Counted from the first letter of the stretch, positions 6,888 to 64,000 are shown. The stretch: 64,000 bases of DNA from Parcubacteria group bacterium 21-54-25 (GCA_002255585.1 NCBJ01000004.1:6415-70414); one strand, 5' to 3'. Program-made: numbers and translations. Notes: generated by a model not told the origin, from the sequence alone.

Positions 6888-6917
6888 GATTCATAGCCGA
6901 GGTCTACACGATAAAAT

Positions 6918-7208: not shown

Positions 7209-7795
7209 ACGTGTGAAGAGTCTCCTAACCAGTATACCTTGAGTGTCATACTATATGTCGCATTTTGCGCAGCATTCTTATTGGCTGAGCTGCCAGACGC
7301 GGTGCCGGCCGTCACTTTTATCGATTGCACGTCAATCAAACGCAAGCTGTGCTCAAGACCAGTAAGGAACGTGCGGAAGCTCTGGTAAGAACCGGTGCCG
7401 GAAAGATCAACCGTGAAAGATTGAACGGACGGCGCCGTAGCGGCGCGACCGTTTTGCGCGGTAGCCGGGGTCTGTGTATTTGCACTAAATTTCGAAAGCG
7501 TGAACCCCGCATTAGCCGCAAGCGTATTGAGATCATAGAGGAAATGCACGCTATGCGCGGTGGCAGGCAGAAATTGGTCGAGGCGCGTGCGGTTTGCGGT
7601 AGAGATCTGGTTAAATTGATTCTGTAGCTGAGACTCCTTGCTTGTGTATTGTTTTGCTGCTATTTGAGCGGCCTCGGTCGCGGTAATTTGCGCGTTAAGT
7701 GGTACAATCGTGTCGCTGTACGTTGGCTGTATGTAAACAAAATACAGACCGACAACAAAGAGTAATTCTATGAGGATGACGAGGCGGTTGTTCAT
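7205..7795 (-). CDS. pilO: Type IV pilus assembly protein PilO-like
   Basis: 196 aa. N-terminal TM helix plus a coiled-coil/periplasmic domain. Gene order pilM-pilN-pilO, with 4-nt overlaps. Confidence 0.65.
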   Translation of the reverse strand: MNNRLVILIELLFVVGLYFVYIQPTYSDTIVPLNAQITATEAAQIAAKQYTSKESQLQNQFNQISTANRTRLDQFLPATAHSVHFLYDLNTLAANAGFTLSKFSANTQTPATAQNGRAATAPSVQSFTVDLSGTGSYQSFRTFLTGLEHSLRLIDVQSIKVTAGTASGSSANKNAAQNATYSMTLKVYWLGDSSHV

Positions 7796-8460: not shown

Positions 8461-8537
8461 AGAATACTTATAGTATACGCGAGTACCGACGTTGCAGGAC
8501 TAGTTATACACAGGCCGCGCTGGAGGCGCACACGGCG

Positions 8538-9629: not shown

Positions 9630-9661
9630 TTTACCACGGGGCGATGCGGTACCATACCAAC

Positions 9662-10285
9662 ATGAGGATAGCTGAGTGGTTAGTAGACCTGCTCTTTCCC
9701 CCGCGCGCGAGCGAGCAGCGCATGCGACGCGGTGACACGAATGCGGTGTTGGCACTTCTTTCGCCAACCGTCATCGACACGTGCACGCCGCCAGCAATCG
9801 GCTTACTTCCCTTTCGAGATCCACTGGTGCGCGCACTCATACACGAAGCAAAATACCACGAGCACGAGCGTGCATTTGCGCTCTTGGGCGGCGCGTTGCA
9901 TGAGTACCTTGCTGAATGGACTGCTGACGTTGGCTTTGGCGATGTGTGCGTGGTGCCCGTACCGCTTTCGGCCGCGCGCCAAAAGACGCGCGGCTACAAC
10001 CAGGTGGAGCGCGTGCTGGCATACGCCATGCGCGGTGTGTCAATCACCGTGCATAGCGACTTGCTTGTTCGCCTTCGCGATACCCCCTCACAAACGACAC
10101 TCTCGGGGAGCGCGCGGCAAGAAAATGTGCACGGCGCCTTCGGCGCTGTGCACCCACTCTCACCTGAGAGCACCTACATACTGCTCGATGATGTCCTCAC
10201 CACCGGGGCCACCATGCAGGCAGCTATCGACGCGCTCACCCAGGCCGGTGCGGCACGCATCATCCCGATCGCGCTTGCACATTGA
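9662..10285 (+). CDS. ComF-family phosphoribosyltransferase-domain protein (competence protein ComFC-like)
   Basis: PRTase motif ILLDDVLTTGATM near the C-terminus. Start set to the ATG at 9662 (alternative 9644) to avoid pilM. Divergent from pilM. Confidence 0.65.
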   Translation: MRIAEWLVDLLFPPRASEQRMRRGDTNAVLALLSPTVIDTCTPPAIGLLPFRDPLVRALIHEAKYHEHERAFALLGGALHEYLAEWTADVGFGDVCVVPVPLSAARQKTRGYNQVERVLAYAMRGVSITVHSDLLVRLRDTPSQTTLSGSARQENVHGAFGAVHPLSPESTYILLDDVLTTGATMQAAIDALTQAGAARIIPIALAH

Positions 10286-22351: not shown

Positions 22352-22383
22352 CACCGATCGATTGGAGTATATGGTCGTTTTTG

Positions 22384-22457
22384 TGGGCGTACCAGGACTC
22401 GAACCTGGAACCGCTGAGGTATAAGCTCAGTGCTCTAACCAATTGAGCTATACGCCC
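22384..22457 (-). tRNA. tRNA-Ile (anticodon UAU), 74 nt, CCA not encoded
   Basis: Revcomp is GGGCGTA-TA-GCTC-AATTGGTTA-GAGC-A-CTGAG-CTTATAC-CTCAG-CGGTT-CCAGG-TTCGAGT-CCTGG-TACGCCC-A. Anticodon loop CUUAUAC gives anticodon UAU. Confidence 0.8.
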
Positions 22458-22547: not shown

Positions 22548-22889
22548 CTAAACCCGCATAAAGCGAACGCCAAATAGGGTATTGACGAGCGCGAGGAGAA
22601 GTGCGAAAAGAAACGCGGTGCCAAAACCAGAAACCGAGAAGCCCGGCACAAGCGCCGCGGCACCCAGTATGATGAGTGCGTTTATGACGAGTGAGAAAAG
22701 CCCGAGCGTGAGAATCGTGAACGGTAGGGTGAGCACCGTAATGATTGGCCGAATAAATAGGTTGATGAGCGCAAGCACCGCAGCGAGCACTAGCGCGCCC
22801 ACGAGCGTCACCTGGACGCCGGGCACGAGGTACGCCGCAATGCCAATCGCAAGTGCTGCAACGAGCCAGTGGAGAAGCGTATGAATCAT
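22548..22889 (-). CDS. Phage_holin_4_2 (PF04020)-like 4-TM membrane protein
   Basis: 113 aa from the ATG at 22889 (MIHTLLHWLVAALAIGIAAYLVPGV...LTLPFTILTLGLFSLVINAL...), matching the conserved PF04020 pattern. The upstream ORF extension is discarded. Confidence 0.6.
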   Translation of the reverse strand: MIHTLLHWLVAALAIGIAAYLVPGVQVTLVGALVLAAVLALINLFIRPIITVLTLPFTILTLGLFSLVINALIILGAAALVPGFSVSGFGTAFLFALLLALVNTLFGVRFMRV

Positions 22890-22956
22890 GCGCGTAGCAT
22901 AGCATGGAGCAACCGCTCGTGCCGTCTGCTCGTGTTGCCTGCAAAGGTATGCTCTA

Positions 22957-23583
22957 ATGGGGCACATGCTGCACTTTTTACAGGAGCTTGTGTTTAATCC
23001 CGCCGCGGTTGTGACTGCGGCGGGATACTTGGGTGTCTCGCTCATCATTTTCGCCGAAACAGGCATTCTGCTTGGCATTTTCTTACCGGGCGATAGCCTG
23101 CTTTTTGCTGCGGGGCTCGTGGCTTCACAAGGCGTGTTGGACCCTGTCGCACTTGCAGCACTCGTCGCGCTCGCGGCAATTGCGGGAGACGCAACCGGCT
23201 ACTGGATCGGCCGCGCTGGAGGCGAGGCCGTACTTGGTCGCTATCCGCGCCTCATAAAGCCAGAACATATCGAGCGAACAGAACAGTTTTACGCGCGCTG
23301 GGGGGCGCGCGCGGTTGTGCTTGCGCGGTTCGTGCCAATCGTGCGTACGATCGTGCCCGTTCTGGCCGGCGTCGGCCGCATGCGCTACGATCGTTTCTTT
23401 CCGTTCAACGTCATTGGTGGCATTTTGTGGGGGCCGCTTGTGATCGCGCTTGGCTACTTTCTAGGACGCAGCATTCCTAATGCCGCACATTATCTGTTGC
23501 CCTTAAGCCTCCTTATCGTCCTCATTTCTTTCCTGCCCTTTTTCATACGCCTCGTACGCAATCGGCGAATGCGCAGCAGCTAG
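22957..23583 (+). CDS. DedA-family membrane protein (SNARE-associated/VTT domain)
   Basis: 208 aa. Hallmark motifs GYLGVSLIIFAETGILLGIFLPGDSLLFAAG and RFVPIVRTIVPVLAGV. Confidence 0.8.
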   Translation: MGHMLHFLQELVFNPAAVVTAAGYLGVSLIIFAETGILLGIFLPGDSLLFAAGLVASQGVLDPVALAALVALAAIAGDATGYWIGRAGGEAVLGRYPRLIKPEHIERTEQFYARWGARAVVLARFVPIVRTIVPVLAGVGRMRYDRFFPFNVIGGILWGPLVIALGYFLGRSIPNAAHYLLPLSLLIVLISFLPFFIRLVRNRRMRSS

Positions 23584-52154: not shown

Positions 52155-52769
52155 CTACTTCTGATACGGCGGCCAGAACGCCTGACCACCGTTTTCCATC
52201 TCCGTCATTCCTTTGCGGAAGGCCCTTTGGAACGCGGCGTATTTAGCAGGGTCATGAAGGAGTCGCTTAACCTCCTCCGGCGAATACCAGACAATCCTTT
52301 TGCTGCTTTCTCCATCACGAACGCACGTGAGGTCGAGGTTCATGTTTTCATCCCTATAACTGAACTCCCAGGAGGGGACCATGGTGACGCCGGTAATCGC
52401 CGCATACATCGCCATGAGCGGCTTGATCAGCATACTGGCCCCATCGGAGGTTATGTTGTAGAGATATCCACCGAAACCGCCACCGGCGCCACCGGCAACA
52501 GCCGAAAAAAATGCCCTACGTACACCTCCCTTGACGGCGCTGCCGCGAATGTCGTTAACTACGAGCCTGCACTGGTCGAAGATCTTTCGGTGCATCGCTT
52601 GATCGGTCCTTGTCACCGGACCATCGACCAGTGGTTTCATGATTGGTATCTCACTCACCCGCACCGGGCCAAACTCATGATTACCTCCCATCATCGCACA
52701 CCCGTTGGAAGAAAAGATTGCGAAGAAAATGAGTAGCGCAACCATCCCACGCACGATTCTTTTGGCCAT
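52155..52769 (-). CDS. Hypothetical lipoprotein
   Basis: 204 aa. Signal peptide plus lipobox-like FSSNGC. Gly-rich segment (AGGAGGGFGGY). No family recognised. Confidence 0.5.
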   Translation of the reverse strand: MAKRIVRGMVALLIFFAIFSSNGCAMMGGNHEFGPVRVSEIPIMKPLVDGPVTRTDQAMHRKIFDQCRLVVNDIRGSAVKGGVRRAFFSAVAGGAGGGFGGYLYNITSDGASMLIKPLMAMYAAITGVTMVPSWEFSYRDENMNLDLTCVRDGESSKRIVWYSPEEVKRLLHDPAKYAAFQRAFRKGMTEMENGGQAFWPPYQK

Positions 52770-52885: not shown

Positions 52886-53401
52886 CTATTGGGCTGGAGT
52901 CGTCGTTGCTGGTGTCACACTTACAAGCTGCACCTTGAAAATAAGTGTCGAGTTCGGAGGGATGGGGCCATTACCTTGTGCGCCGTAGCCAAGTGCCGGC
53001 GGAATGGTGATTGTGCGTTGCCCGCCGACTTTCATACCAATGACGCCCTCCTCCATACCTGGGATGACATTGTGTGCTCCAATGGTGAACGGAAGCGGCT
53101 TATTGCCGTGTGCTTGTGAGGAATCAAAAACCGTGCCGTTGGAAAGCATGCCCTCGTAGAGAATGGAAATTTGATCGCCTGGTTGGGCAACTGCGCCCGT
53201 ACCCACTACCGTATCCACGACAGAGAGGCTCCCTGGTGTCGCGGACGTTGTCGTACCGGTGGTCGAAGCCACGGATACTGCCTGATTGATGGACGACTGG
53301 GTACCTACGCCGGTAAAAAACGCAAAGATTGACTGGCCAAAGAAACCAAAGACGACCACGACAATCGCAAGAGCAACGGCAATTCCAGTAGAAGTGTTCA
53401 T
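52886..53401 (-). CDS. FKBP-type peptidyl-prolyl cis-trans isomerase, membrane-anchored
   Basis: 171 aa. N-terminal TM, then an FKBP domain (GDQISILYEGMLSNGTVFDSS...PLPFTIGAHNVIPGMEEGVIGMKVGGQRTITIPPALGYG). Confidence 0.85.
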   Translation of the reverse strand: MNTSTGIAVALAIVVVVFGFFGQSIFAFFTGVGTQSSINQAVSVASTTGTTTSATPGSLSVVDTVVGTGAVAQPGDQISILYEGMLSNGTVFDSSQAHGNKPLPFTIGAHNVIPGMEEGVIGMKVGGQRTITIPPALGYGAQGNGPIPPNSTLIFKVQLVSVTPATTTPAQ

Positions 53402-53425: not shown

Positions 53426-53752
53426 TTATGATGTGGGCCCTGGCTCGCCAAGCGCAGCAACATCTTTGGTAATAGCGCGTACGGTTTCAAGCATAATCTC
53501 GTCGGCGTCCGGAACGTGCTCGGTAAGAAACGTCGAAACCTCTTCTTCGGACGCATCGCGTTCCATAAGCTTCTCGAAGTCATCGCGAGTTTTCTGGTCC
53601 ATGCGCTCAATGAGCCGTATGAGCGTACCCTCGAATATTGTATCAGAGAGATCGAGCAAAATCTGCTCTTGTTCCGCGGGTGGGTATTCTGAAAGGTCCA
53701 GTGTGGAAAAAAGCGTTTCAATTGAGGAGTGGTGTGGTGTGGAAGTGGTCAT
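53426..53752 (-). CDS. Small acidic hypothetical protein
   Basis: 108 aa, strongly acidic and helical. Lies between the giant protein and the FKBP gene. Confidence 0.4.
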   Translation of the reverse strand: MTTSTPHHSSIETLFSTLDLSEYPPAEQEQILLDLSDTIFEGTLIRLIERMDQKTRDDFEKLMERDASEEEVSTFLTEHVPDADEIMLETVRAITKDVAALGEPGPTS

Positions 53753-53775
53753 GGCTTGAAATTATACTTATAAAA

Positions 53776-56661
53776 CTATTTTGATTGCGTGAACTTAGAT
53801 ATATCAATAGGTGGAACAGGGTTCCCCGAGGCATCAAGCATTGGTCTAAGTGATTGTAGCGGCGGACCATCTTTCGCGGTCTGTATGAATGAATAATTAG
53901 CTACAGTCATGCGCCCATTACTCATTTGATAGGGAACTAACGCCTGATCTTTGGGATGTTTGAGTAAATGCTCATACGCGACGAGTCGTTGCGCATCGAT
54001 ATCGCCACCATATACGACGATACGATGTGGAGCGTTCGAGTACACACGCGTCGGATCAAGCCCGCGTTGTGACGCAGTGTGGTTTACTCGTTCTAAGAAA
54101 TGCGCGAGTGTCTCGTTGCTCTCCGGACCCACACCGGATTGTGCCACAACATTTACCAGTTCTTTGTGAAGTTCGGGCGAAACATGTGGAGAATGATAGA
54201 GCACCGCAAACGCGGGAGTGTGCGCATAGTTCCCAAGCTCGCTCGGATCCAGCAGTTTAGCAATTTCGTGGTGGATTAATGCGGGACTTGGCGATACCTG
54301 AGCTGCCGCCTCTGTCACATGGTGGGTCGGTGCAACCCAAGAACCGGTATGCACCGGATTCCCCGACGAATCGCGCACAATTTCCCCTTCTTGGTTATAC
54401 AAGACACCCGGCTGGTGCTGTGGTGCATTTGCGGTATGGTGACCGGCGGTTTCTGCTGCATGTTGCGGCGCGGATGCCGCGGCTTCTGCGTGCGCTGTGG
54501 CACCAGGAGCAACTTGTTCTGTCGCATGCCCCGCACCGCTGGGCGCGTGATCGGTGTGGTACGATCCGCTAAATTGACTGATTTTCTCTATGTGGCCGCT
54601 CGCATCACTTGCGAGAACGTGGTTGTTGAAAACCAAATGTCCGCTCGTCGGGTCATACTGCAGGGTGTCTCCGGCATGCATTACACTGCTTTGGCCGAGC
54701 ATGCGAGCGGCTGACGGTGCTTTTGCGAACCCATACTCTTCTGAGAGATCGTGCAGGCGTGTGTGTAAAATATACTGCACTTCCGGCGGCGCCTTGCTCG
54801 GATCCGGATAGAGTTCACGCAGCTGGTGCTTCAGATCTCCAAAGAGCGCGTCTGCGCCCTCGTCCGACCTATCTATGTGCGCAACGGCCGCACGGGCATC
54901 GAGGTGGTGTTCTCCAGCGGTGTGCGGAACGGTGGCTTCCTGCGCAGGTCGAATGGGGGCTTCGTGCACAGCCGGTGCGTGGGCTGCGTGCTCAACGGGT
55001 GGCAGCAAACTGCTGTTTGAATGCACGTGTTCAACAGGTGCAGGAGCGGCAAGTGTTACGGTGTGTTCGGCAGGCATAGTCGCGACACCTTCAGGAGCGT
55101 GTGGGATCGGCGCGGCAGAATGAGTGGCCTGCTCGATTCCTGTAGTGGCACTAGCCGCGTGATCCAACACTGAGGCAGCAGACATGATTTCATGGGCAGC
55201 AGCGCCAGAGACACCAGCCGCAAACAGCGCCGCGGACGCCCGCTCCCAGAAACGGGCACCGCGTTCGATCGCCTCTTTCGATCCTTTTTTCCATGCACGT
55301 GTTTGCGCGTCGAGCTCTTCTCTACTTGAAATATCTTGCGTACGCGCCTTCGCCAACGCTGCTTCGCGACGCTTGCCAACCGTTGCTCGGTATCCTTTCC
55401 CGCCAGCGGCACCTGCCGCCGCGCCAAGCGGTGTGGAGGCGACGGTCGCACCGACAAGACCGCGGCCAGCACGCAACCCAAACGCCGAAAGCGCAGCAAT
55501 TGGCGCGGCAATACCCGCCACCGCACCCACCACAGTCCCTGCGGCGGTACCAAGAAAGGCAAACGCGACGACACGTCTTGCGCGTGCCACACGCTTGCCG
55601 TAGCGCGCCTCCTGCGCTTCGGTTTTTTGCTGCATCCAACGCACCGCTTTCCGAAAAGTAAGGTGGCTGGCTTCATCGAGTCCGCGCTCTTTGGCAGCGA
55701 TACGCGCACGTTCTCCTCGTCCGATAGTGTGGTGCGAGACCATACTGTTATAACGCGCGTGAATGGCCCGTCGATCGTCCGCGTCATGTATGACATTACT
55801 TTTTCTAAACCGAGCGCGGAGTGCGGCGCGCTCTATTTCAAACTGCTCTTTTTCCTCCTGCGAAATTTCTTTACTTTCAATTTTGTCGGTGAGCGCGTGA
55901 ATGTCTTCAATAAGTTCCATGCGATCAACGGACGATGTGTTGCGCGAGATGAGCTTTCGTGTCTCCCGTTGAACTTTCGTATCCGCATCATCTCCGTGCC
56001 GAGCCCTTTCCTGCTCCAGCGCTCCTTCTTCAGTAGCTAGTATCGCATTGTTCCGTGTGAAAAAATCCTGGTGTTTTTTCGCTAAGGCAAGATCGTCTTC
56101 AGGAGCGGACACAAAACGTTTAGCGGCGCGTTGCGCGACCGATTCATTTATTGCCTCTCGTAAAGCTAGCTGTGCGTCCTGATATTCCTCGTGCAGCTGC
56201 GTCACCCGTTCTCGTGCGAGCCGCTCTGGGCTGTTGCGTCCGGCAAGTCGACTTAAAAACCCGTGTTCTTTGTGCAGGGCGCGGTACGCGCCCAGGTATG
56301 CCGCTTCAGCTTTGAGCATTTTTCTACGTGCGTCTGCAACACCAGCGCGCTCGGCTAATGTATCAGCGATATTTGTCTGCGGCGCAACCCCCAGAGCGCG
56401 AGCGGGCGGACGATTAAGCTCGCTGGAATCAGCGACTCGCCCGCTTGGTATATCAGATCTGAGCAGCCCAGTTTTTCTGAGCTTTTCCTCCGCAACAGCA
56501 AGCTCCGCTTCGGAAGGGTTCTTAAACCCTGGGACTGATATGGAATCCGTGAGTTTCGTGTCGTGGGGTGCGACATCAGACAATTCTTTTACCGTCGCAC
56601 GCAGCTGCTCTCTCTTATCGTGCGGGGTTTCTCCCGTATTTCTTGTGGGACCTTCGCTCAT
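53776..56661 (-). CDS. Giant (961 aa) hypothetical protein: N-terminal coiled-coil, two central Gly/Ala-rich TM helices, C-terminal His/Ala-rich extracytoplasmic domain
   Basis: ATG at 56661 verified. About 390 aa of charged coiled-coil. TM pair near residues 400-450 (VVAFAFLGTAAGTVVGAVAGIAAPIAALSAFGL...). The C-terminal half is rich in His. No known domain recognised. Confidence 0.55.
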   Translation of the reverse strand: MSEGPTRNTGETPHDKREQLRATVKELSDVAPHDTKLTDSISVPGFKNPSEAELAVAEEKLRKTGLLRSDIPSGRVADSSELNRPPARALGVAPQTNIADTLAERAGVADARRKMLKAEAAYLGAYRALHKEHGFLSRLAGRNSPERLARERVTQLHEEYQDAQLALREAINESVAQRAAKRFVSAPEDDLALAKKHQDFFTRNNAILATEEGALEQERARHGDDADTKVQRETRKLISRNTSSVDRMELIEDIHALTDKIESKEISQEEKEQFEIERAALRARFRKSNVIHDADDRRAIHARYNSMVSHHTIGRGERARIAAKERGLDEASHLTFRKAVRWMQQKTEAQEARYGKRVARARRVVAFAFLGTAAGTVVGAVAGIAAPIAALSAFGLRAGRGLVGATVASTPLGAAAGAAGGKGYRATVGKRREAALAKARTQDISSREELDAQTRAWKKGSKEAIERGARFWERASAALFAAGVSGAAAHEIMSAASVLDHAASATTGIEQATHSAAPIPHAPEGVATMPAEHTVTLAAPAPVEHVHSNSSLLPPVEHAAHAPAVHEAPIRPAQEATVPHTAGEHHLDARAAVAHIDRSDEGADALFGDLKHQLRELYPDPSKAPPEVQYILHTRLHDLSEEYGFAKAPSAARMLGQSSVMHAGDTLQYDPTSGHLVFNNHVLASDASGHIEKISQFSGSYHTDHAPSGAGHATEQVAPGATAHAEAAASAPQHAAETAGHHTANAPQHQPGVLYNQEGEIVRDSSGNPVHTGSWVAPTHHVTEAAAQVSPSPALIHHEIAKLLDPSELGNYAHTPAFAVLYHSPHVSPELHKELVNVVAQSGVGPESNETLAHFLERVNHTASQRGLDPTRVYSNAPHRIVVYGGDIDAQRLVAYEHLLKHPKDQALVPYQMSNGRMTVANYSFIQTAKDGPPLQSLRPMLDASGNPVPPIDISKFTQSK

Positions 56662-56718
56662 ATATTATGTATTATCAACGACAAGCATGCGAACGCCAAA
56701 CCCTTCTGTGCACAGGGG

Positions 56719-59499
56719 CTACCCGCCGGTAAGATAGCGTGCATGAATAGTTTCTTCCACCATCGTGCGGTCGCGCCCATAGGTGAGGTAGGAAAGCTGG
56801 CGCAAATCATCCACTTGCGCCAAGTGTCTTTGAGGCGGCGGTAGTGTCTCTATATTAAACGGTTTTTGTGGTACGCCGCGTGCAAGAATCTTCACATACG
56901 CGCGATAGTTCTCGATACTAATGAAATCTGACGTCTCGAACGTCGGTGCAAACTGCTTGGCGAAGAACTCACCATCTTCTTCTCCCACACGGAATACTGC
57001 CATGGAGCCCACGTTGCCGAAAATCGCATCACGAATCTTCTCATCCACCTGATCGAGGTACTGGTGCGCGATATTGAGCGAAAGCTTGTACTTGCGCGCC
57101 TCGGAAAGAATACCAGGAATTGAATCGGTGGTGATGTTCTGAAACTCATCGATGTAGAGGTAAAACGGCGGGAAATCAGTACCTGGTGAGTCGGCGCGCG
57201 AAAGTGCGGCCATGAAAATCTTACCGACCAGGACGAGACCGATGAGGTTCGCGTTTCGCTCGCCCAAGCGGCCCTTGGAGAGATTCACGAGCAATATCTT
57301 TTTCTGGTCCATGATCTGCCGGAAATCGAACGATGACTCCTGCTGTCCGACGATGGGACGCATGAAATCGTTTGCGGTAAAGTCATCAAATTTGTTCGTG
57401 ATGTAGGGCACGATGTTCTCGAGCGATGCTTCCCCGCCGGCTTGCGTGGCAATCTCTGTCCAAAACTGGTTCACCACCGGATTTCTACTACGCGAGAGTT
57501 TCATATTGCGGAACGCAGTGTTCGAAAGTACGCGAGGAATGTCGAGCATGGTCGATCCACTTCCCGGGTCTTCCATGACAAGCTGCGTCGCGTTTCTAAA
57601 GTACTGCTCAAACGCCGGTCCCATACTCTCGGGCACATCGCCATACAGGCGACGAAAGATCGCGAGGAGTTCGTTCACGATAAAGGTTTTCTGCTCGGGA
57701 CGCTTCGGGTCGTATTCAAGCAAATTCAAGCCAAACGGTCGCTCGATGTATGCGGGATCAAAATAAATAACGTCTTCGTAACGCTCGGGCGGAATCATTG
57801 CGAGAATGTCGAGAATGTCATTACCGTGCGGATCGATGAAACAGGCACCGGCGCCCGCTTTTATGTCTTGCGCGATGAGTGTTTTCAAGAAAACTGTTTT
57901 ACCCGTGCCAGTCTGACCGATAACATAGAGGTGTCGGAGCCGGTCTTCCTCCGCAATACGTACCTTAGTTTCTTTTCCGCGAAACAAATTGGTCCCGAGC
58001 ACGGTTCCCGATTGCGGCAGATCGAGCGGCGCAGGTGCGGCGGTGAAGCGTGTTTGTTTCAAATGTGGCGAGGATTCGATACCTTCTGGCGGGAAGTGAT
58101 ACAGCGTGGTGAGCTCACGGAGCGAAAGTGGCATGGCGGCGGCACTCGGCGTGCGGAATGAAAATTCGTCCATGAACGCACGTGCGCGGCTTCCTGTCGC
58201 GCGCGTAAATATAAGCCGGTTTCCAAACGTGTTGTCAAACTGGTTAAACGCCGCCTCGAGGTCCGAGAGCACTTGGTCGGTACGTGCGGCCTGCGGCGAA
58301 GAAACCAGCAGCCGCAGCGTAATTCCCACGACCGGCGCAGAAATCTTTTTCTCCACCTGTTCGATGTCGTTTTTATTTGCTTCGGCCTGTCGCATTTCTG
58401 CCTCACGCGCCTTCTCTTCATCTTTTGGCTTGTTCCTAAAGAAAAGTTTCCCGAAATCATGCGCCACTTCGCCGAGCGTTGTCTCGGGAGTCTTAAATGC
58501 CTCTTCGCGCTTGACGCCCTTCCTGAGCGCCGAGAGTATTTTGCGATAGTGCGCCGTATAACGCTGTCCCTGTGGCTCAAAAATTATCTGCAGCGCAGCC
58601 CCCTCGCCCTCGGTCTCAATTTTCGCAAATGCATTGAGAATGGTGTTCAGTGGGTCGTAATCAAAATCTGTATAGTCTTTGAGCGGCAGCATCGCTGGCG
58701 CAGCGAGACGCGCGGTCGAAACAAGTGATGCGCCGTTCTCGACAAAAATGTTGTAATCGTTTGGCTGCGGTTCTATGTGCGCGTCTGGAAAGACCGCGAG
58801 AAGCTGTTTTTCAAAAAGGTCGCGGCGGCTGTTCGGAATCGCTACGTAAAAGAAAAGATGTGCGCTCTCAACGGGTACCGCAAGCTCAAGCGCTACGTAC
58901 GGTGGTTCTTTTTGGGCGACTGCCCCCACAGCGAGCATGCCTGAGTAAAATTGCTCCATTGCAGAGACGAGTTCTTTGAGCGTTTTACCGCGCGTTTCCG
59001 GCGCATCGCCCTTGTGCTCTGGCAGTGTTACTTCATACAGTGTCATATGAAGTGCCCTGAAGCGTGGGGCGTTCTCAACCATGCCGCGTATCGGTAATCC
59101 CGCCGCTACGTAGCGCACAAGAAAGCGATGGAAATCGTCAGTGATGTGTGGATTATTCAGTTTATCGAGCACGGCAAGCGAGTTCTTGATGCCGCGCGTT
59201 TCCATGATGCTGTAGAGCTCCGTCATCGTGTCGTCGTTATTGTCGGGATCCAGTCCCAACGAAAGTTCATGCACCTCAGACGCTGCCATCCGATAGGGCG
59301 GCGCAAGCACGGCTTCCTGCGGTGCCTGTCGGTGCGTCTGTATCGCCTCATGCGCCGCCGCTTCACGCTCTTGGCGAGCGGCCTCCGGCGCGAGCGGTAC
59401 CTGACGCAACGTTATGAGCTCTTGTTCTTTAGCGGCTACCTGTGCACGCAAGTGCGCGAGTTCCTCCTCTGGTGTCGAGAGCTGTGGCGTTCCTTCCAT
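56719..59499 (-). CDS. FtsK/HerA-superfamily ATPase with TraD/VirD4 (T4SS coupling protein)-like motor motifs and a large soluble N-terminal domain
   Basis: 926 aa. Walker A HLYVIGQTGTGKTVFLKTL followed about 20 aa later by FIDPHGNDI. Walker B/arginine region YLYIDEFQNITTDSIPGILSEARKYKLSLNIAHQYLDQV matches the TraD/VirD4 pattern DEF...AEARK...Q..sQL. No N-terminal TM segments. Confidence 0.6.
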   Translation of the reverse strand: MEGTPQLSTPEEELAHLRAQVAAKEQELITLRQVPLAPEAARQEREAAAHEAIQTHRQAPQEAVLAPPYRMAASEVHELSLGLDPDNNDDTMTELYSIMETRGIKNSLAVLDKLNNPHITDDFHRFLVRYVAAGLPIRGMVENAPRFRALHMTLYEVTLPEHKGDAPETRGKTLKELVSAMEQFYSGMLAVGAVAQKEPPYVALELAVPVESAHLFFYVAIPNSRRDLFEKQLLAVFPDAHIEPQPNDYNIFVENGASLVSTARLAAPAMLPLKDYTDFDYDPLNTILNAFAKIETEGEGAALQIIFEPQGQRYTAHYRKILSALRKGVKREEAFKTPETTLGEVAHDFGKLFFRNKPKDEEKAREAEMRQAEANKNDIEQVEKKISAPVVGITLRLLVSSPQAARTDQVLSDLEAAFNQFDNTFGNRLIFTRATGSRARAFMDEFSFRTPSAAAMPLSLRELTTLYHFPPEGIESSPHLKQTRFTAAPAPLDLPQSGTVLGTNLFRGKETKVRIAEEDRLRHLYVIGQTGTGKTVFLKTLIAQDIKAGAGACFIDPHGNDILDILAMIPPERYEDVIYFDPAYIERPFGLNLLEYDPKRPEQKTFIVNELLAIFRRLYGDVPESMGPAFEQYFRNATQLVMEDPGSGSTMLDIPRVLSNTAFRNMKLSRSRNPVVNQFWTEIATQAGGEASLENIVPYITNKFDDFTANDFMRPIVGQQESSFDFRQIMDQKKILLVNLSKGRLGERNANLIGLVLVGKIFMAALSRADSPGTDFPPFYLYIDEFQNITTDSIPGILSEARKYKLSLNIAHQYLDQVDEKIRDAIFGNVGSMAVFRVGEEDGEFFAKQFAPTFETSDFISIENYRAYVKILARGVPQKPFNIETLPPPQRHLAQVDDLRQLSYLTYGRDRTMVEETIHARYLTGG

Positions 59500-59568: not shown

Positions 59569-61524
59569 CTATGCAGCGACGACAGTCTTCTCTTCCTCTT
59601 CTTTTTTCTTTGGGGTAATGCCGTTTGCAATAAGCAGTTTCTCAAAATCATCGCGTTCGAGTGTCTCAACCTCGATAAGTCTTCCAGAAATCGCATCGAG
59701 TGCCCCACGATGCTTCTCAAGCAGTTTGTGGGCGCGGGTCTTCCCTTCCTCTATCATGCGAGAAATCTCTGCGTCGATTTTTGCCGCGACTTCCTGCGAA
59801 TACGGTTCGTGTATTGGCGGTGCTGACGTACGTTCTCCGGCAAAGGCAACCGGACCGAGCGCAGCACTCATGCCGTAGCGCACCACCATATCGCGCGCAA
59901 GCGCCGTCGCGACCGCTAAATCATTATGCGGACCGGTCGTTACATCATTGAAAATCATCTCTTCCGCAGCAAAACCACCGAGCGTTGAGGCAATGTCATC
60001 GAGAAACTCTTTTTTGCTCTGCATCTTTTTGTCTTCGAAAGGCAGCTTGAGCGTGTACCCGGCAGCGCGGCCACGGCTGATGATGGAAATTTTATGCACC
60101 GGGTCGGCATACGGCAACACCGAAGAAACGAGCGCGTGGCCTGCTTCATGGTAGGCCGTAATCTTTTTTTCTTTCGCTGAAAGCATGTGGCTCTTGCGCT
60201 CCGGACCGAGCATGACTTTTTCGATTGAGCGAATGAGATCATATTGGGTTACCTCCGTGCGACTTTCGCGCGCGGCAAGGATGGCGGCCTCATTCATGAG
60301 CGAATAGAGCTCTGCGCCAGAAAATCCTGGCGTTCGTTCGGCAATAACAGTGAGGTCTACATCGGGACCAAGTGGTTTTTTGCGCGCGTGAATCATGAGG
60401 ATTTCCTCGCGATCGCGCCGGTCTGGCAAGTCAATAACAACACGTCGGTCGAAACGACCGGGACGCAAAAGCGCCGGGTCAAGCACGTCCGGACGGTTAG
60501 AAGCCGCCATGACAATCACTTTTTCAGTCGGCTCGAAGCCATCCATCTCAACAAGTATTTGGTTCAGAGTCTGTTCGCGCTCGTCGTTGCCACCACCCAC
60601 GCCACTGCCACGCACGCGTCCAACCGCATCAATCTCATCGACAAAAATAATCGCGGGCGCTGCGCGCTTTGCCATTTGAAAAAGGTCACGCACGCGACTC
60701 GCCCCCACACCGACAAACATTTCTACAAATTCCGAACCAGAAATAGAAAAGAATGGCACGCCCGCCTCACCGGCGACTGCGCGCGCAAGAAGTGTCTTAC
60801 CAGTACCTGGCGCACCCATGAGGAGAATCCCTTTGGGAATGCGCGCACCGATATCAAGAAATTTCTTTGGATTTTTTAGAAAGTCGACAATCTCAACCAG
60901 TTCTTCCTTTGCTTCGCGGGCACCAGCAACGTCAGCAAACGTAACGCGCTGGGTGGTGTCGGCCGGGTCAGTCATACGTGCCTTTGATTGACCGAAAGAA
61001 AAGGCCTGCATACCAGCCCCTTTTACTTGGCGCGACAAGAACCAGAACAACAGCGCGAAAAACAAAAACGACAAGAGTACCGGGGCAAGCGTGGTGAGCC
61101 AGAAGTACCAACCAGACTCTCCTTCTATCGTGATAGCCGTTTTCGAAAGCTCGGTGGGCGTTACCCCGTAGGCGGTGAGTGTTTGCGCGAGCGCGGCAGC
61201 CGGATCTTTGCGTGAGGTACGCACCGTACCGTCGGTATACGTCAAATTCAGCCTGTCGCCCGAGACTTTTATTGCGGCCACCTTACCGGCAGAGACGTCT
61301 TGCGCAACCTGCGAGAGTGGAATGTCTTGTATCTTGGTCCCCGGCGAAGAAAAGAGAGTATACAAGCTCATGAGGAGCAGGAAAATGAGGATGGTTGAAA
61401 TGAGGTTGCCCGTGAACGAGGAGCCGAACTTCGGAAAGCGCGGTGGCTTTATCCCTGGTTTTTGTTTTTTGCCGCTGCCGCTGCGTGTAGAGCGACGCGC
61501 AAGACGTGGACGCGGGGTAGGCAT
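59569..61524 (-). CDS. ftsH: ATP-dependent zinc metalloprotease FtsH
   Basis: 651 aa. Two N-terminal TM helices; AAA+ module ([26 protein letters not shown]); zinc protease HEAGHA motif. Confidence 0.95.
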
Positions 61525-62111: not shown

Positions 62112-62521
62112 GGGGGTGACCGGCTTTGACGGTCTGTACCTTGAGAATGCGCGACGCGGTGCACGCTCACTTACCACCTAAAACTAGTGAGCACCTAAAC
62201 GTGCCAAGAAATCTCTTGCACGCGCAGTGTCGCCATACTTCGGTATGAACGACTTTGCGTTCGCGGCAGTGACGGCTCGAGCGTAAGCTCGCCTCGCTCT
62301 CGCGACGTCTCCCTACCTTGCGTTTGCAGGGGGTAGTCGAGGCGGAATGTACTGCATACTCGACGTGCGCGCGCCCACGCGTACTGTCTAAATTTTGGGA
62401 TCCGACAGGAGTGATTTTGTTTCAGTTCCTCGCACCCTGTCCTAGCTTCAACTGAAACTACGCGTCGTAGAAGCACCTCATGGTCCGGATTCGGACGGGA
62501 GTTCGATTCTCCCCACCTCCA
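62112..62521 (+). ncRNA. ssrA: tmRNA (ssrA)
   Basis: 5' end GGGGGUGACCGGCUUUGACGG. 3' end GGACGGGAGUUCGAUUCUCCCCACCUCCA, i.e. T-arm plus acceptor with the G3-U70 Ala identity pair. CCA not encoded. A candidate tag reading frame ends at TAA 62284-62286 (...NDFAFAAVTARA); the resume codon is uncertain. Confidence 0.8.
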
Positions 62522-64000
62522 CATCTTGTGAATTCTTGGTAGCAAACTGCTCAAAAAGGCCGATAAATGGCGACTTTAGCGCGGTTTCAAATCCAAACTT
62601 TGGATGGAATGCCAATCGTTCCGCAAAGAGTAGTTTTAGAACTACTCTTTTTGCGTTTATGTCTCGCTTTTCCCAGATAACTAGCGGGTTTTCTAGGAAG
62701 TTGAGTACGACCTCTAGTGCGGTTTCAAAACTCACGGATGAGACGCCCAGCCCTTTCATCCGCTCTTGCAAGAGATCGCCTTCGCTTCGGTATTTCGCGA
62801 TCTGTTCCTCGTATGCGCTGATCACCCTTTCGTCTACCGCCTTCACGACACGTCCAGCGAGAACATCCACCTGACGCCGCGTTTCCTTCAGCTTCGTCTC
62901 CAAGGATCTTTGTTGCTGCTCAAGAGAACCCACCTTGTGTTCCCACAATTCCAGAACTACGGCTTTAGCGAGACGAATGGCCCCGGGCTTCGGGTAGATG
63001 GACTGGAGGAGTTTTACAAATTCTGCATCGACAAAGTCTCCGCTCACGCTTTTATTGAATCGAACGCAGGATGGGCTCTTGCAGCGATAGAAACGGTACA
63101 TCTTTGATCTGCCTCTCGACCAGCTTGCGGTGAGTGCGCCTTGGCAGAATGGGCACAGGAGGAATCCGCGAAGCGCGAAGTCGAGCGAATCACTTTTCCG
63201 CACAGCCACCCTGCACTTCCCATCCAGTTTTCCCTGCACTTTTTGGAATGTCTCGAGAGAAATGATCGCTTCATGTTGCCCTTTTCTTCTCGAAACTTCC
63301 CACTCCTCACGCTCGACGTATCCCGCGTACACAACTCGTCGAAGAAGACGTCTAACGCCTTCTTGGTAAATCGGTCCGTTGCTGTAGTCTGTAGCACGCA
63401 AGAATTTAACCACGTCCGCCTGCGACAAAAACTTGCCAGAGGCAAATCCTTCAAACACTTCTCTAATGAGGCTGGCCTGCGGTTCATGGGGTTGAAGTAT
63501 CTTCCCATGCGCCGGATCCTTGACCTGCTTGTATCCGGGCGGCGGATAGTGCGGCCAGTACCCTTTCTCTAGGCGAGCTTTCATTTTCTGAATTACCTGG
63601 CGTCTGTTGTTCTTGCGATGGTATTGATTTTGCAACGCCACCATTCCCTCGAACATCTCTCCTTCCGGCGAATCGTCGAAGTTGAAATTCAAACAGAGTG
63701 GTTTAATTCCTCTAGTCTCGAAGGCCTGTCTTAATTTGAAATGAAAAATAACGTCCCTAGCAAACCGGCTCAAATCGTCAAAAATAACCACGTAGTTTCT
63801 ATGGGGATGATTATCTGCATGAGCAAGTAGCCTTTGCATAGCAGGCCTCAGCATAAAATCGCCGCCGCCGGTGAAACTATCTCTAAAGACTTCCTCTACC
63901 TCGTAGCCGTTGGATCTAGCGAACTCTCGGCATCGGTGTTCTTGGCTGTCGAGTCCGTGCCCTTTGACCTGACCCCCAAATTTCAGACCACTCTCTAGAC
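62478..64000 (-). CDS. Large serine recombinase (resolvase/integrase), N-terminus beyond window end
   Basis: The reading frame stays open to position 64000. Upstream in-frame translation gives ...GQVKGHGLDSQEHRCREFARSNGYEVEEVFRDSFTGGGDFMLRPAMQRLL...VVIFDDLSRFARD (resolvase catalytic domain). It is followed by the recombinase domain, a zinc ribbon (CPFCQG...CKSPSC) and a coiled-coil. Its 3' end overlaps the tmRNA 3' end by 44 nt. Confidence 0.8.
   Translation of the reverse strand, partial: LESGLKFGGQVKGHGLDSQEHRCREFARSNGYEVEEVFRDSFTGGGDFMLRPAMQRLLAHADNHPHRNYVVIFDDLSRFARDVIFHFKLRQAFETRGIKPLCLNFNFDDSPEGEMFEGMVALQNQYHRKNNRRQVIQKMKARLEKGYWPHYPPPGYKQVKDPAHGKILQPHEPQASLIREVFEGFASGKFLSQADVVKFLRATDYSNGPIYQEGVRRLLRRVVYAGYVEREEWEVSRRKGQHEAIISLETFQKVQGKLDGKCRVAVRKSDSLDFALRGFLLCPFCQGALTASWSRGRSKMYRFYRCKSPSCVRFNKSVSGDFVDAEFVKLLQSIYPKPGAIRLAKAVVLELWEHKVGSLEQQQRSLETKLKETRRQVDVLAGRVVKAVDERVISAYEEQIAKYRSEGDLLQERMKGLGVSSVSFETALEVVLNFLENPLVIWEKRDINAKRVVLKLLFAERLAFHPKFGFETALKSPFIGLFEQFATKNSQDVEVGRIELPSESGP

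What the first reader, a model, noticed from the sequence alone, without database searches (positions are those of the whole stretch)
53426..59499. Candidate secretion or DNA-translocation module: TraD/VirD4-like FtsK-HerA ATPase with a large soluble N-domain, next to a 961-aa coiled-coil/2-TM/His-rich giant protein
The 926-aa protein has Walker A GQTGTGKT followed by FIDPHG. Its Walker B/arginine block is IDEFQNIT...SEARKYKLSLNIAHQYLDQV, which mirrors the DEF...AEARKFG...QS..QL signature of conjugative coupling proteins (TraD/VirD4/TrwB). It lacks their N-terminal transmembrane anchor. Instead it carries about 480 aa of unrelated soluble sequence, as VirB4/HerA-like ATPases do. Immediately downstream, 57 nt past its stop, is a 961-aa protein with a long cytoplasmic coiled-coil, two Gly/Ala-rich TM helices and an approximately 500-aa His-rich extracytoplasmic domain. 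A small acidic protein and an FKBP isomerase follow, and FtsH lies upstream on the same strand. No classical VirB/Trb scaffold genes are present. This pair may be a minimal or uncharacterised membrane-translocation or surface-interaction system.
Basis: partly seen in the sequence, partly recalled or inferred. Interest (0 to 1): 0.6.

Follow-up and report, generated by a model that had tools for sequence, protein, structure and literature searches.

The report
Orphan conjugation-type motor with membrane partner
A tiny-genome Parcubacteria/Paceibacteria (candidate phyla radiation) bacterium keeps, as a highly conserved chromosomal gene, an anchor-less version of the ATP-driven "coupling" motor that plasmids use for conjugation, almost always followed by a fast-evolving giant membrane protein and a small acidic protein; the motor family was already noted in the literature, but the partnership and its job are not understood.

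Summary
The window comes from Parcubacteria group bacterium 21-54-25 (class Paceibacteria).

**ATPase (926 aa).** It is a type IV coupling protein (T4CP, VirD4/TrwB-type) with no membrane anchor. Its N-terminal domain is Pfam DUF8128. The same two-domain architecture sits next to relaxases and VirB4 in Bacillus and Embleya conjugative plasmids (hhalign probability 100%, E 5e-47). Here it is chromosomal, has no nearby relaxase, and is conserved almost as strongly as UvrB or TGT.

**Partner genes.**
- In 51 of 75 informative related loci, a homologous large protein starts a median of 6.5 nt after the ATPase stop codon. It has a charged helical N-part, Gly/Ala-rich membrane segments and an acidic His/Pro-rich C-part.
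- This protein evolves about ten times faster than the ATPase.
- DUF5663 was found only in loci that also carry it.
- FKBP, TGT and UvrB (and FtsH in the closest relatives) are ordinary neighbours by synteny.

**Interpretation.** Most likely this is a domesticated two-partner T4CP module at the cell membrane. Its substrate is unknown. It may feed the T4SS encoded elsewhere in this genome. It is a new variant of a known kind, of moderate interest.

The parts
56719..59499 (-). 926-aa TM-less type IV coupling protein (T4CP)-type ATPase with a DUF8128 N-terminal domain
   Evidence: ORF confirmed. Pfam DUF87 scores 27.5 bits and TraG-D_C 24.1 bits, both above their gathering thresholds. Precomputed PF26449 DUF8128. 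AF2 pLDDT 91.8. Foldseek hits TrwB, Cag-beta, DotL and VirB4. hhalign probability 100% to a plasmid T4CP-position protein.
59080..59499 (-). ATPase residues 1-140: N-terminal helical extension with long helices at 10-31 and 38-58; no TM segment
   Evidence: AF2 secondary structure. Hydropathy finds no N-terminal TM. This part is absent from the ~800-aa relatives, which match the query only from residue ~150-200 onward.
58024..59067 (-). ATPase residues ~145-492: alpha/beta DUF8128 domain
   Evidence: Confident AF2 alpha/beta domain. Aligned column by column with residues 55-330 of the B. subtilis plasmid homologue.
56722..58005 (-). ATPase residues 499-926: nucleotide-binding domain. Walker A is at 528-535 (nt 57895-57918) and Walker B IDEFQ at 783-787 (nt 57139-57153). 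An all-helical insertion lies at ~602-708.
   Evidence: Motif positions. K534, D784, E785 and R802 are invariant across 82 homologues. Superposes on TrwB with TM 0.67.
53776..56661 (-). 961-aa fast-evolving partner protein. Residues 1-355 are charged and helical (38% E/K/R/D/Q). Residues 356-500 form a Gly/Ala-rich membrane region with three hydrophobic segments. Residues 501-961 form an acidic, His- and Pro-rich C-part.
   Evidence: No Pfam or NCBIfam family. Homologous syntenic genes in 51 loci. Identity to the closest five relatives is 28-38%, against 69-78% for their ATPases.
55162..55596 (-). Partner residues 356-500: membrane region. Hydrophobic segments lie at 361-399, 401-420 and 470-493, with a K/R-rich loop at 421-472.
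   Evidence: Single-sequence and family-averaged hydropathy. The loop has 14 K+R against 7-8 D+E.
54562..54870 (-). Partner residues ~598-700: conserved block GEGADALF..LK..LR..YPDP..APPEVQ..L..EYGFA
   Evidence: Alignments A1 and A5. No PDB hit. Whole-protein Pfam and NCBIfam scans found no family. This block retrieved 7 metagenomic relatives.
53947..54294 (-). Partner residues ~790-905: conserved C-terminal block (..SGVGP..NETL..FL.RA....V.YGGD..AR..AYEYL..HP)
   Evidence: Alignments A1 and A4. No PDB or Pfam hit.
53426..53752 (-). 108-aa acidic (pI 4.2) DUF5663 protein. In related loci it was found only in loci that also carry the partner gene.
   Evidence: Pfam DUF5663 scores 29.8 bits against a 23.7-bit threshold. 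pI. A family profile hits 43 related loci; it gave no hit in the 11 loci without the big gene or in the eight ~51-54%-identity loci checked.
52886..53401 (-). 171-aa membrane-anchored FKBP-type prolyl isomerase. It is a syntenic neighbour and probably not specific to the module.
   Evidence: Pfam FKBP_C at 109 bits. N-terminal TM at residues 1-34. It follows the ATPase directly in 11 loci that lack the partner gene.

Best explanation
**What the 926-aa protein is.** It is a cytoplasmic, anchor-less member of the type IV coupling protein (T4CP, VirD4/TrwB/TraG) branch of the FtsK-HerA ATPases. More precisely, it belongs to the subfamily with a DUF8128 N-terminal domain. In conjugative elements of Bacillota and Actinomycetota, that subfamily occupies the coupling-protein position next to a replication-relaxation-type relaxase and a VirB4.

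**What changed in Paceibacteria.** The motor has been domesticated. It is chromosomal, has no nearby relaxase, appears vertically inherited and is under strong purifying selection. Its catalytic residues are intact.

**Proposed mechanism (inferred).**
1. The motor works as a two-partner T4CP. The soluble ATPase ring is held at the cytoplasmic membrane by the product of the tightly linked downstream gene.
2. That partner has a charged helical cytoplasmic N-part that would dock the ATPase, Gly/Ala-rich membrane segments, and a rapidly diverging acidic His/Pro-rich part with two conserved blocks that probably faces outward.
3. ATP hydrolysis would then drive a macromolecular substrate (protein or nucleic acid) to or across the membrane. 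It could pass through the partner itself, or be handed to the Patescibacteria-type T4SS that this genome encodes elsewhere.
4. The small acidic DUF5663 protein, found only in loci that also carry the partner, would act as an adaptor, chaperone or regulator of the motor.

**Shown versus inferred.** Shown: family assignment, fold, catalytic conservation, gene linkage and evolutionary rates. Inferred: physical docking, membrane topology, the DUF5663 role, and the nature and direction of the substrate.
For: **Family assignment**
- TraG-D_C and DUF87 score above Pfam thresholds.
- A profile of 82 homologues hits TrwB (E 4.5e-7) and DotL (6.8e-6); the only other PDB-sequence hit is a weak Walker-A match to a DnaA-related protein at E 0.004.
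- The AF2 model is confident (pLDDT 91.8, pTM 0.82). Its ATPase domain superposes on TrwB at TM 0.67, rmsd ~5 A, over ~436 columns.
- A helical insertion between Walker A and Walker B occupies the position of the T4CP all-alpha domain.

**Ancestry in conjugative elements**
- hhalign against the 913-aa protein of B. subtilis plasmid NRS6116_2 gives probability 100%, E 5.4e-47, 658 columns, covering query residues 199-913.
- That gene is followed by a replication-relaxation family gene, TcpD, TcpE and a VirB4-like ATPase.
- An Embleya plasmid has the order PrgI, ATP-binding protein, homologue, replication-relaxation, NlpC/P60.
- Against the plasmid's VirB4-like ATPase, only the Walker A region matches (probability 4.5%).

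**Domestication**
- No relaxase or T4SS gene was found in the window or in 83 related loci, using single-sequence phmmer.
- The surrounding genes are ordinary chromosomal genes.
- Score ratio to self is 0.65, against 0.75 for UvrB and 0.73 for TGT.
- K534, D784, E785 and R802 are invariant.

**Linkage to the partner**
- 58 of 75 informative loci have a same-strand ORF of at least 250 aa directly downstream. Of these, 51 fall in one homology network with the window protein.
- The median gap is 6.5 nt, and 46 of 58 gaps are 15 nt or less.
- From the partner's side, the ATPase is upstream in 4 of 4 complete metagenomic loci.
- Two distant relatives also have an adjacent giant charged protein with Gly/Ala-rich hydrophobic segments: L082 (51% identity) and L085 (33% identity). 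The L085 protein is also His-rich in its C-part. Gene order differs in both.

**Precedent**
- A recognised class of T4CPs lacks a TM domain and works with a separate membrane protein (TraJ/TraI of pIP501). A second class forms TraG-TraJ pairs (review PMC7434980).
Against: - Eleven relatives keep the ATPase with FKBP directly after it, and have no big gene or DUF5663 at the locus. The partner is therefore dispensable at that position, or is encoded elsewhere.
- Most linkage evidence comes from one clade (60% identity or more). There the housekeeping genes TGT and UvrB are equally syntenic, so part of the signal is shared ancestry.
- Outside that clade the neighbours vary (L084, L086-L088).
- No interaction was modelled.
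- Topology rests only on hydropathy and the positive-inside rule. Two of the three hydrophobic segments are weak.
- The related Saccharibacteria T4CP homologue was reported as non-essential (PMC12102498). It is not known whether that homologue is the DUF8128 type.
Confidence: 0.55

Rival explanations
1. The ATPase is simply the canonical coupling protein of the Patescibacteria-type (MPF-FATA-like) T4SS encoded elsewhere in this genome. The downstream giant protein is an unrelated, fast-evolving surface or membrane protein that is adjacent only through inherited gene order.
For: - The genome (GCA_002255585.1) is listed as VirB4-positive.
- T4CP genes are commonly far from virB4. In Patescibacteria only 148 of 5,713 are near it (PMC12102498).
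- Eleven loci lack the big gene while keeping the ATPase.
- TGT and UvrB are just as syntenic as the big gene.
Against: - T4CP homologues occur in 2,918 of 3,035 assemblies, while VirB4 occurs in 2,417. At least 500 assemblies therefore have a T4CP homologue with no detected VirB4.
- The ATPase has no membrane anchor of its own, so it needs some membrane receptor.
- Gaps of a few nucleotides, or overlapping stop and start codons, suggest co-translation.
- Giant charged Gly/Ala-segment proteins recur next to distant homologues in a different gene order.
- This rival is partly compatible with the best explanation, since the partner could be the docking site for the T4SS.
Confidence: 0.25
2. The ATPase is an FtsK/SpoIIIE-like housekeeping DNA pump for chromosome segregation or cell division. 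The coiled-coil membrane protein is a divisome or envelope scaffold.
For: - Housekeeping-level conservation.
- Core chromosomal context, with FtsH adjacent in the closest relatives, and FtsH and MreC near a distant homologue (L087).
- It belongs to the FtsK-HerA superfamily. FtsK_SpoIIIE scores 21.4 bits, just under the 24-bit threshold.
Against: - The match to FtsK_SpoIIIE covers only about 30 residues around Walker A.
- No FtsK gamma or winged-helix domain and no FtsK TM domain were found.
- Full-length homology is to plasmid coupling proteins next to relaxases.
- A divisome scaffold would not be expected to diverge to 28-38% identity while its motor stays at 69-78%.
- Whether the genome also has a true FtsK was not tested.
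Confidence: 0.1
3. The pair is part of a mobile element or an anti-phage defence system built on a HerA/DUF87-type ATPase.
For: - The ATPase core matches PADLOC mad8 (43 bits) and, weakly, HerA models.
- DUF87 is the HerA central domain.
- A serine recombinase lies about 3 kb upstream, next to tmRNA.
Against: - The gene sits in conserved chromosomal synteny across at least 567 species-level genomes.
- Composition is uniform.
- No NurA, Sir2 or other defence partner was found; the three neighbours scanned gave no PADLOC hit.
- No HerA HAS-barrel was detected, and HerA_C scores 13.7 bits, below its 22-bit threshold.
- SmpB, tmRNA and FtsH lie between the ATPase and the recombinase.
Confidence: 0.03

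Closest known systems
T4CPs lacking a transmembrane domain, which work with a separate membrane protein (TraJ/TraI of plasmid pIP501), and the related TraG-TraJ pairs, as classified in PMC7434980
   Same: - A coupling-protein ATPase with no N-terminal TM anchor, encoded next to a membrane protein that could hold it at the membrane.
- VirD4/TrwB-type nucleotide-binding domain with a helical insertion.
   Different: - The partner here is 650-1,360 aa across relatives (961 aa in the window), with a large cytoplasmic helical part and a large C-terminal part. It is not a small protein of ~200 aa or less.
- No relaxase or mating-pair genes are nearby.
- The gene is chromosomal and conserved like a housekeeping gene.
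- The N-terminus carries DUF8128 plus a helical extension.
- Sequence homology to TraJ of pIP501 itself was not tested.
DUF8128-type coupling proteins of monoderm conjugative elements (913-aa 'DUF87 domain-containing protein' WP_144625398.1 of B. subtilis plasmid NRS6116_2; WP_331738717.1 of an Embleya plasmid)
   Same: Homologous over both the DUF8128 domain and the ATPase domain (hhalign probability 100%, E 5.4e-47). The B. subtilis protein also has no N-terminal TM segment.
   Different: - The plasmid genes are followed by a replication-relaxation family gene and sit among PrgI, TcpD, TcpE and VirB4-like genes. The window gene has none of these nearby.
- Identity is only about 20-28%.
- The plasmid proteins lack the window protein's first ~150-200 residues.
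TrwB (R388), Cag-beta and DotL/IcmO: structurally solved VirD4-type T4CPs
   Same: They are the best structural superpositions of the ATPase domain (TrwB TM 0.67, Cag-beta 0.55, DotL 0.56). TrwB and DotL are also the only convincing PDB sequence-profile hits.
   Different: - Those proteins have N-terminal TM helices and no DUF8128 domain.
- They work with a relaxosome or with adaptor complexes in defined T4SSs.
Orphan T4CP homologues of Patescibacteria reported by Quinonero-Coronel et al. 2025 (PMC12102498)
   Same: Very probably the same population of genes: VirD4-type homologues in 96% of Patescibacteria assemblies, almost never near virB4, with exaptation suggested.
   Different: That study counted HMM hits. 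It did not describe the DUF8128 architecture, the lack of a TM anchor, the conserved giant partner or DUF5663. No paper in the searchable library mentions DUF8128 or DUF5663.
VirB4/TrwK
   Same: - Two-part layout, with an N-terminal alpha/beta domain and a C-terminal ATPase, and no TM anchor.
- Best Foldseek E-values (2e-13), with alignments spanning the whole model.
   Different: - TM-scores are only 0.26-0.31 at rmsd ~16 A.
- NCBIfam VirB4_CagE scores 19 bits against a 643-bit cutoff.
- Profile comparison with a plasmid VirB4-like protein matches only Walker A.

Membership tests
Type IV coupling protein (VirD4/TrwB/TraG) | FtsK-HerA-type nucleotide-binding domain with Walker A, Walker B and a conserved arginine | tested here: met
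   GQTGTGKT is at residue 528 and IDEFQ at 783. K534, D784, E785 and R802 are invariant in 82 homologues. Fold matches TrwB at TM 0.67.
Type IV coupling protein (VirD4/TrwB/TraG) | Match to curated T4CP models (Pfam TraG-D_C, T4SS-DNA_transf, TrwB_AAD_bind; NCBIfam TraD/VirD4) | tested here: inconclusive
   - TraG-D_C scores 24.1 bits, above its 22-bit threshold.
- TrwB_AAD_bind scores 15.3 bits, below its 20.5-bit threshold.
- T4SS-DNA_transf was not reported for the window protein.
- NCBIfam TraD and VirD4 models score 38-42 bits against cutoffs of 250-647.
- Relatives carry precomputed T4SS-DNA_transf and TrwB_AAD_bind hits.
Type IV coupling protein (VirD4/TrwB/TraG) | All-alpha domain inserted in the nucleotide-binding domain | tested here: inconclusive
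   The AF2 model has six helices at 602-708, between Walker A and Walker B. The equivalence with the TrwB all-alpha domain was not checked residue by residue.
Type IV coupling protein (VirD4/TrwB/TraG) | N-terminal transmembrane anchor | tested here: not met
   No hydrophobic segment lies before residue 177, and none is TM-like. Distant relatives P0178, P0179, P0182 and P0192 do have one. A recognised T4CP class also lacks it.
Type IV coupling protein (VirD4/TrwB/TraG) | Genetic association with a relaxase and/or mating-pair (VirB4, VirB6) genes | tested here: not met
   None was found in the 64-kb window or within +/-8 kb in 83 related loci. VirB4 is reported elsewhere in the genome. Plasmid homologues do show this association.
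Pfam DUF8128 (PF26449) | Match to the family model | not testable with these tools
   The local Pfam copy did not report it. The assignment is a precomputed annotation for the identical protein P0001 and all listed homologues.
VirB4/CagE/TrbE | Match to VirB4 models over the N-terminal and ATPase domains | tested here: not met
   TIGR00929 scores 19.4 bits against a 643-bit cutoff. hhalign to a plasmid VirB4-like ATPase gives probability 4.5%, Walker A only. Foldseek gives good E-values but TM below 0.32.
HerA (HerA-NurA) | HAS-barrel plus HerA ATPase domain, with a NurA nuclease partner | tested here: not met
   The DUF87 match covers only 53 residues around Walker A. HerA_C scores 13.7 bits, below its 22-bit threshold. 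HerA structure match is TM 0.50-0.53 at rmsd 13 A. No NurA-like neighbour.
FtsK/SpoIIIE | FtsK_SpoIIIE domain above threshold, N-terminal TM domain and gamma domain | tested here: not met
   FtsK_SpoIIIE scores 21.4 bits, below its 24-bit threshold, over about 30 residues. There is no TM segment.
Pfam DUF5663 (108-aa protein) | Match to the family model above threshold | tested here: met
   29.8 bits against a 23.7-bit threshold, covering profile positions 7-82 of 84.
FKBP-type peptidyl-prolyl isomerase (171-aa protein) | FKBP_C domain | tested here: met
   109 bits, E 1.5e-31. N-terminal TM segment at residues 1-34.
Type VII secretion (EssC plus WXG100) | Multi-domain FtsK-like EssC/EccC and a WXG100 small substrate | tested here: not met
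   T7SS_EccC_b scores 11.6 bits against a 346-bit cutoff. The 108-aa protein has no WXG100 hit at E<=0.1.

The most novel reading that the evidence does not exclude
The DUF8128 ATPase, the giant Gly/Ala-segment membrane protein and DUF5663 together form a self-contained translocon that does not depend on the T4SS. It would be near-universal in Paceibacteria. A soluble conjugation-derived hexameric motor would dock on a dedicated, host-facing membrane protein to move nucleic acid or protein across the single membrane at the contact site with the host. One example would be import of host nucleic acids, on which these nucleotide-auxotrophic episymbionts depend.
Probability: 0.15. Interest if true: 0.8.

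Novelty: new variant of a known kind. Interest (0 to 1): 0.45.

Why it matters
Patescibacteria make up a large share of bacterial diversity and live attached to host cells. How they exchange macromolecules with their hosts is largely unknown.

- **What was known.** A 2025 survey found VirD4-type coupling-protein homologues in 96% of their genomes, almost never next to the T4SS, and left their role open.
- **What this locus adds.** It gives one such orphan motor a concrete anatomy: no membrane anchor, a DUF8128 domain, and descent from monoderm conjugative elements. It also identifies a candidate membrane partner and a candidate small adaptor, neither of which has been described.
- **Evolutionary pattern.** A motor conserved like a housekeeping gene is paired with a partner diverging about ten times faster. 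That is the pattern expected of machinery whose outer face meets a changing host.
- **What follows.** If the pairing is functional, it defines a testable module for the few Patescibacteria that can now be cultured and genetically manipulated.

Tried and rejected
**Tools or searches that gave nothing**
- Homologue searches for the 961-aa protein in the 5.8-billion-protein index returned only itself, both as a single sequence and as a 12-sequence profile. Homologues had to be taken from syntenic loci.
The single-sequence model had pLDDT 45.8 and was not used for fold search.
- Profiles of the two conserved C-terminal blocks of the partner gave no PDB hit, and the second block (residues ~790-905) no Pfam hit either.
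- The promoter and terminator scan found no more sites than shuffled sequence, so it says nothing about operon limits.

**Hypotheses considered and rejected**
- HerA-NurA repair was rejected.
- Anti-phage defence was rejected. Only a generic mad8/HerA core match was found, and the gene is a core syntenic one.
- A type VII-like system was rejected.
- A ~110-aa three-TM protein lies just upstream of the ATPase in 55 relatives and was considered as a membrane anchor. It resembles DUF360/holin-family-4 proteins (judged from memory, not tested). In the window its homologue lies 34 kb away at 22548-23078, so it was not counted as part of the module.
- FKBP as a dedicated foldase for the Pro-rich partner was considered. 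FKBP stays in place when the partner is absent, so this was set aside.

Full report
**1. Observation**

| Gene | Coordinates | Size / note |
|---|---|---|
| FtsH | 59569-61524 | upstream, 69 nt gap |
| ATPase | 56719-59499 | 926 aa |
| Large protein | 53776-56661 | 961 aa, 57 nt gap |
| Small acidic protein | 53426-53752 | 108 aa, pI 4.2, 23 nt gap |
| FKBP isomerase | 52886-53401 | membrane-anchored, 24 nt gap |

The quoted motifs are at residues 528 (GQTGTGKT), 554 (FIDPHG), 783 (IDEFQNIT) and 799 (SEARKYKL...). The ATPase has no N-terminal hydrophobic segment.

The identical ATPase and large protein are on record for Parcubacteria group bacterium 21-54-25. This is an 840-kb Paceibacteria genome. 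The rest of the window is ordinary chromosome. It holds a type IV pilus cluster, ATP synthase, LeuRS, RecG, UvrA/B/C, tRNAs, SmpB and tmRNA. Base composition is even.

**2. The ATPase**

*Family models.* Pfam gives DUF87 (27.5 bits) and TraG-D_C (24.1 bits) just above threshold. FtsK_SpoIIIE, TrwB_AAD_bind and HerA_C fall below threshold. NCBIfam TraD, VirD4 and VirB4 models score far below their cutoffs. Precomputed annotation assigns the N-terminal half to Pfam DUF8128.

*Size and conservation of the family.* There are 20,934 50%-identity cluster representatives at E<=1e-3 and 5,481 at E<=1e-30. Within Paceibacteria-type genomes the protein is full-length and 66-81% identical in the top 120 hits. 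At least 567 species-level genomes encode a close relative. Its score ratio to self has a median of 0.65. That is close to UvrB (0.75) and TGT (0.73), and far above FKBP (0.35), DUF5663 (0.29) and the large protein (0.05). K534, D784, E785 and R802 are invariant in 82 aligned homologues.

*Structure.* An AF2 model from that alignment is confident (pLDDT 91.8, pTM 0.82). It shows:
- an N-terminal helical extension (1-140);
- an alpha/beta domain (~145-492);
- a nucleotide-binding domain (499-926) with a helical insertion at 602-708.

*Fold search against the PDB.*

| Target | E-value | TM-score | Comment |
|---|---|---|---|
| TrwK/VirB4 | 2e-13 | 0.26-0.31 | whole-length alignment, rmsd ~16 A |
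| TrwB | 1e-10 | 0.62-0.68 | best superposition, rmsd ~5 A |
| Cag-beta | ~2e-9 | 0.53-0.56 | |
| DotL | 7e-9 | 0.56 | |
| HerA | 6e-11 | 0.50-0.53 | rmsd ~13 A |

A sequence profile against PDB chains hits only TrwB and DotL convincingly.

*Plasmid relatives.* A tblastn search against plasmids found relatives covering both domains in Streptomyces and Embleya, Bacillus subtilis and haloarchaea.
- The B. subtilis NRS6116_2 protein aligns with probability 100%, E 5.4e-47, over query residues 199-913. It is followed by a replication-relaxation family gene, TcpD, TcpE and a VirB4-like ATPase.
- The Embleya plasmid has the order PrgI, ATP-binding protein, homologue, replication-relaxation, NlpC/P60.
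- Against the plasmid's VirB4-like ATPase, only the Walker A region aligns.

*Conclusion.* The protein is a coupling-protein-type ATPase of a DUF8128 subfamily used by monoderm conjugative elements. In this lineage it has no relaxase or mating-pair neighbours and no paralogue in the window.

**3. The large protein**

It has no Pfam or NCBIfam family. It found only itself in the indexed protein search. Syntenic genes in related loci are nevertheless homologous: 51 loci plus the window form one phmmer network.

Conserved blocks lie at residues ~100-180, ~300-345, the membrane region, ~598-700 and ~790-905.

Composition splits the protein into three parts:

| Residues | Character |
|---|---|
| 1-355 | 38% charged, predicted helical (low confidence) |
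| 356-500 | 40% Ala+Gly |
| 501-961 | acidic, 9.1% His, 9.1% Pro, no Cys |

Family-averaged hydropathy shows three conserved hydrophobic segments. One is strong (361-399) and two are weak (401-420, 470-493). A K/R-rich loop lies between the second and third, and the tail is K/R-poor. By the positive-inside rule this fits an N-in, three-span, C-out topology. This is inference only.

Profiles of the two C-terminal blocks match nothing in the PDB, and the second block nothing in Pfam.

**4. Linkage**

Of 79 related loci, 75 have enough downstream sequence to judge.

| Downstream of the ATPase | Loci |
|---|---|
| Same-strand ORF of 250 aa or more, in the homology network | 51 |
| Same-strand ORF of 250 aa or more, not in the network | 7 |
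| FKBP directly, no large gene | 11 |
| Undetermined or different | 6 |

- The median gap is 6.5 nt, and 46 of 58 gaps are 15 nt or less.
- A DUF5663 profile hits 43 related loci. It gave no hit in the 11 FKBP-direct loci or in the eight ~51-54%-identity loci checked. Eight loci have the large gene without DUF5663. The dependency therefore looks nested: ATPase, then large protein, then DUF5663.
- Searching metagenomes with the large protein's block at 598-700 gave 7 loci. The ATPase is immediately upstream in all 4 that extend far enough, and DUF5663 follows in all 5 that extend downstream.
- Two distant relatives again have a giant charged protein with Gly/Ala-rich hydrophobic segments next to the ATPase. 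These are L082 (51% identity) and L085 (33% identity, with two tandem DUF8128 ATPases). The L085 protein is also His-rich in its C-part. In both the giant gene is upstream of the ATPase and has no detectable sequence homology to the window protein.
- Other distant loci do not show this.
- FtsH is adjacent only in the closest relatives. The FKBP-TGT-UvrB order persists whether or not the large gene is present, so those genes are syntenic neighbours rather than parts of the module.

**5. Literature**

- Quinonero-Coronel et al. 2025 (PMC12102498) found 5,713 VirD4-type T4CP homologues in 2,918 of 3,035 Patescibacteria assemblies. Only 148 were near virB4. VirB4 itself was found in 2,417 assemblies. 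They noted that the Southlakia homologue was not essential and that exaptation cannot be ruled out. Their Table S1 lists this genome as VirB4-positive.
- Wang et al. 2023 (PMC10633639) reported no recognisable coupling protein or relaxase in the Southlakia T4SS cluster.
- A T4CP review (PMC7434980) recognises a class lacking the TM domain that works with a separate membrane protein (TraJ/TraI of pIP501), and a class of TraG-TraJ pairs.
- No paper in the searchable library mentions DUF8128 or DUF5663.

**6. Interpretation**

The best-supported reading is a domesticated two-partner coupling-protein module. A soluble, strongly conserved T4CP-type motor would be tethered at the membrane by the product of the tightly linked, fast-evolving downstream gene. 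DUF5663 would be an accessory adaptor or regulator.

Whether the module works alone or feeds the T4SS encoded elsewhere cannot be decided here. T4CP homologues are more widespread than VirB4, which leaves room for a T4SS-independent role. The substrate and its direction are unknown.

Rivals, in order of weight:
1. A plain distant coupling protein for the T4SS, with a merely adjacent surface protein (0.25).
2. An FtsK-like housekeeping DNA pump (0.1).
3. A defence or mobile-element origin (0.03). PADLOC gives only a generic mad8/HerA core match.

**7. Verdict**

The finding is a new variant of a known kind. The motor family and its orphan status in Patescibacteria are already published. The DUF8128 anchor-less architecture, the conserved giant partner, the DUF5663 dependency and the contrast in evolutionary rates are not. 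Interest is 0.45.

Noticed in passing
window 62112-62524 (+) and 62478-63854 (-): The tmRNA gene's 3' end overlaps by about 45 nt the longest ORF for a serine recombinase (Resolvase plus Recombinase domains; 458 aa here, called as 453 and 502 aa in the public records). This suggests an element integrated at tmRNA that begins near the window's end. ARAGORN's tag peptide (VPRNLLHAQCRHTSV) also looks atypical.
   Followed up: no
window 22383-22457 (-): A tRNA-Ile with anticodon TAT (UAU). This is an uncommon way for bacteria to read AUA, which is usually decoded by a lysidine-modified CAU tRNA.
   Followed up: no
window 22548-23078 (-); for example L032:7575-7913: A ~110-aa, almost entirely hydrophobic three-TM protein lies 30-1,900 nt (about a third within 70 nt) upstream of the ATPase in 55 related loci. 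It looks like the DUF360/holin-family-4 type (from memory, not tested). In this genome its homologue sits 34 kb away, and FtsH occupies the upstream position instead.
   Followed up: partly
window 187-9767 (-): A type IV pilus gene cluster lies in the same window: T2SSE/PilB-like ATPase at 5127-6887, T2SSF/PilC at 2430-3641 and PilM at 8538-9767. Type IV pili are the other envelope machine implicated in Patescibacteria host attachment.
   Followed up: partly
proteins P0178, P0179, P0182, P0185, P0192; locus L084: Distant DUF8128 ATPases carry a 450-1,200-aa Pro/Ala-rich low-complexity C-terminal tail ending in a conserved GEV(F/Y)VD..GNV motif. Four of the five (not P0185) also carry an N-terminal TM helix. 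This is a different solution from the separate partner gene seen here.
   Followed up: partly
L085:4909-11216; proteins P0168 and P0265: Other architectures exist in the family. L085 has two tandem DUF8128 ATPases (835 and 1,071 aa) after a giant coiled-coil protein. P0168 is a single 1,210-aa chain with two ATPase modules. P0265, from Chloroflexota, is a 1,438-aa protein with a ~970-aa N-terminal extension (TPR-like by eye, not tested).
   Followed up: no
L089 (B. subtilis plasmid NRS6116_2, NZ_OX419581.1): This 63.6-kb plasmid is typed 'non-mobilizable' by MOB-suite. It nevertheless carries a DUF8128-type coupling protein, a replication-relaxation family gene, TcpD, TcpE, a 'conjugal transfer protein' and a VirB4-like ATPase. 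It may be an unrecognised conjugative element.
   Followed up: no
window 52155-52769 (-): A 204-aa basic protein (pI 9.5) with an N-terminal hydrophobic segment and a possible lipobox (..SSNGC) lies between FKBP and TGT. It has no family hit. A homologue was found in only two related loci (L018, L073), on the opposite strand.
   Followed up: partly
L043:11343-12932, L052:6266-8086: In two loci that lack the large gene between the ATPase and FKBP, a 529-606-aa protein with 41% charged residues and no TM segment follows FKBP. It could be a displaced or alternative partner.
   Followed up: no
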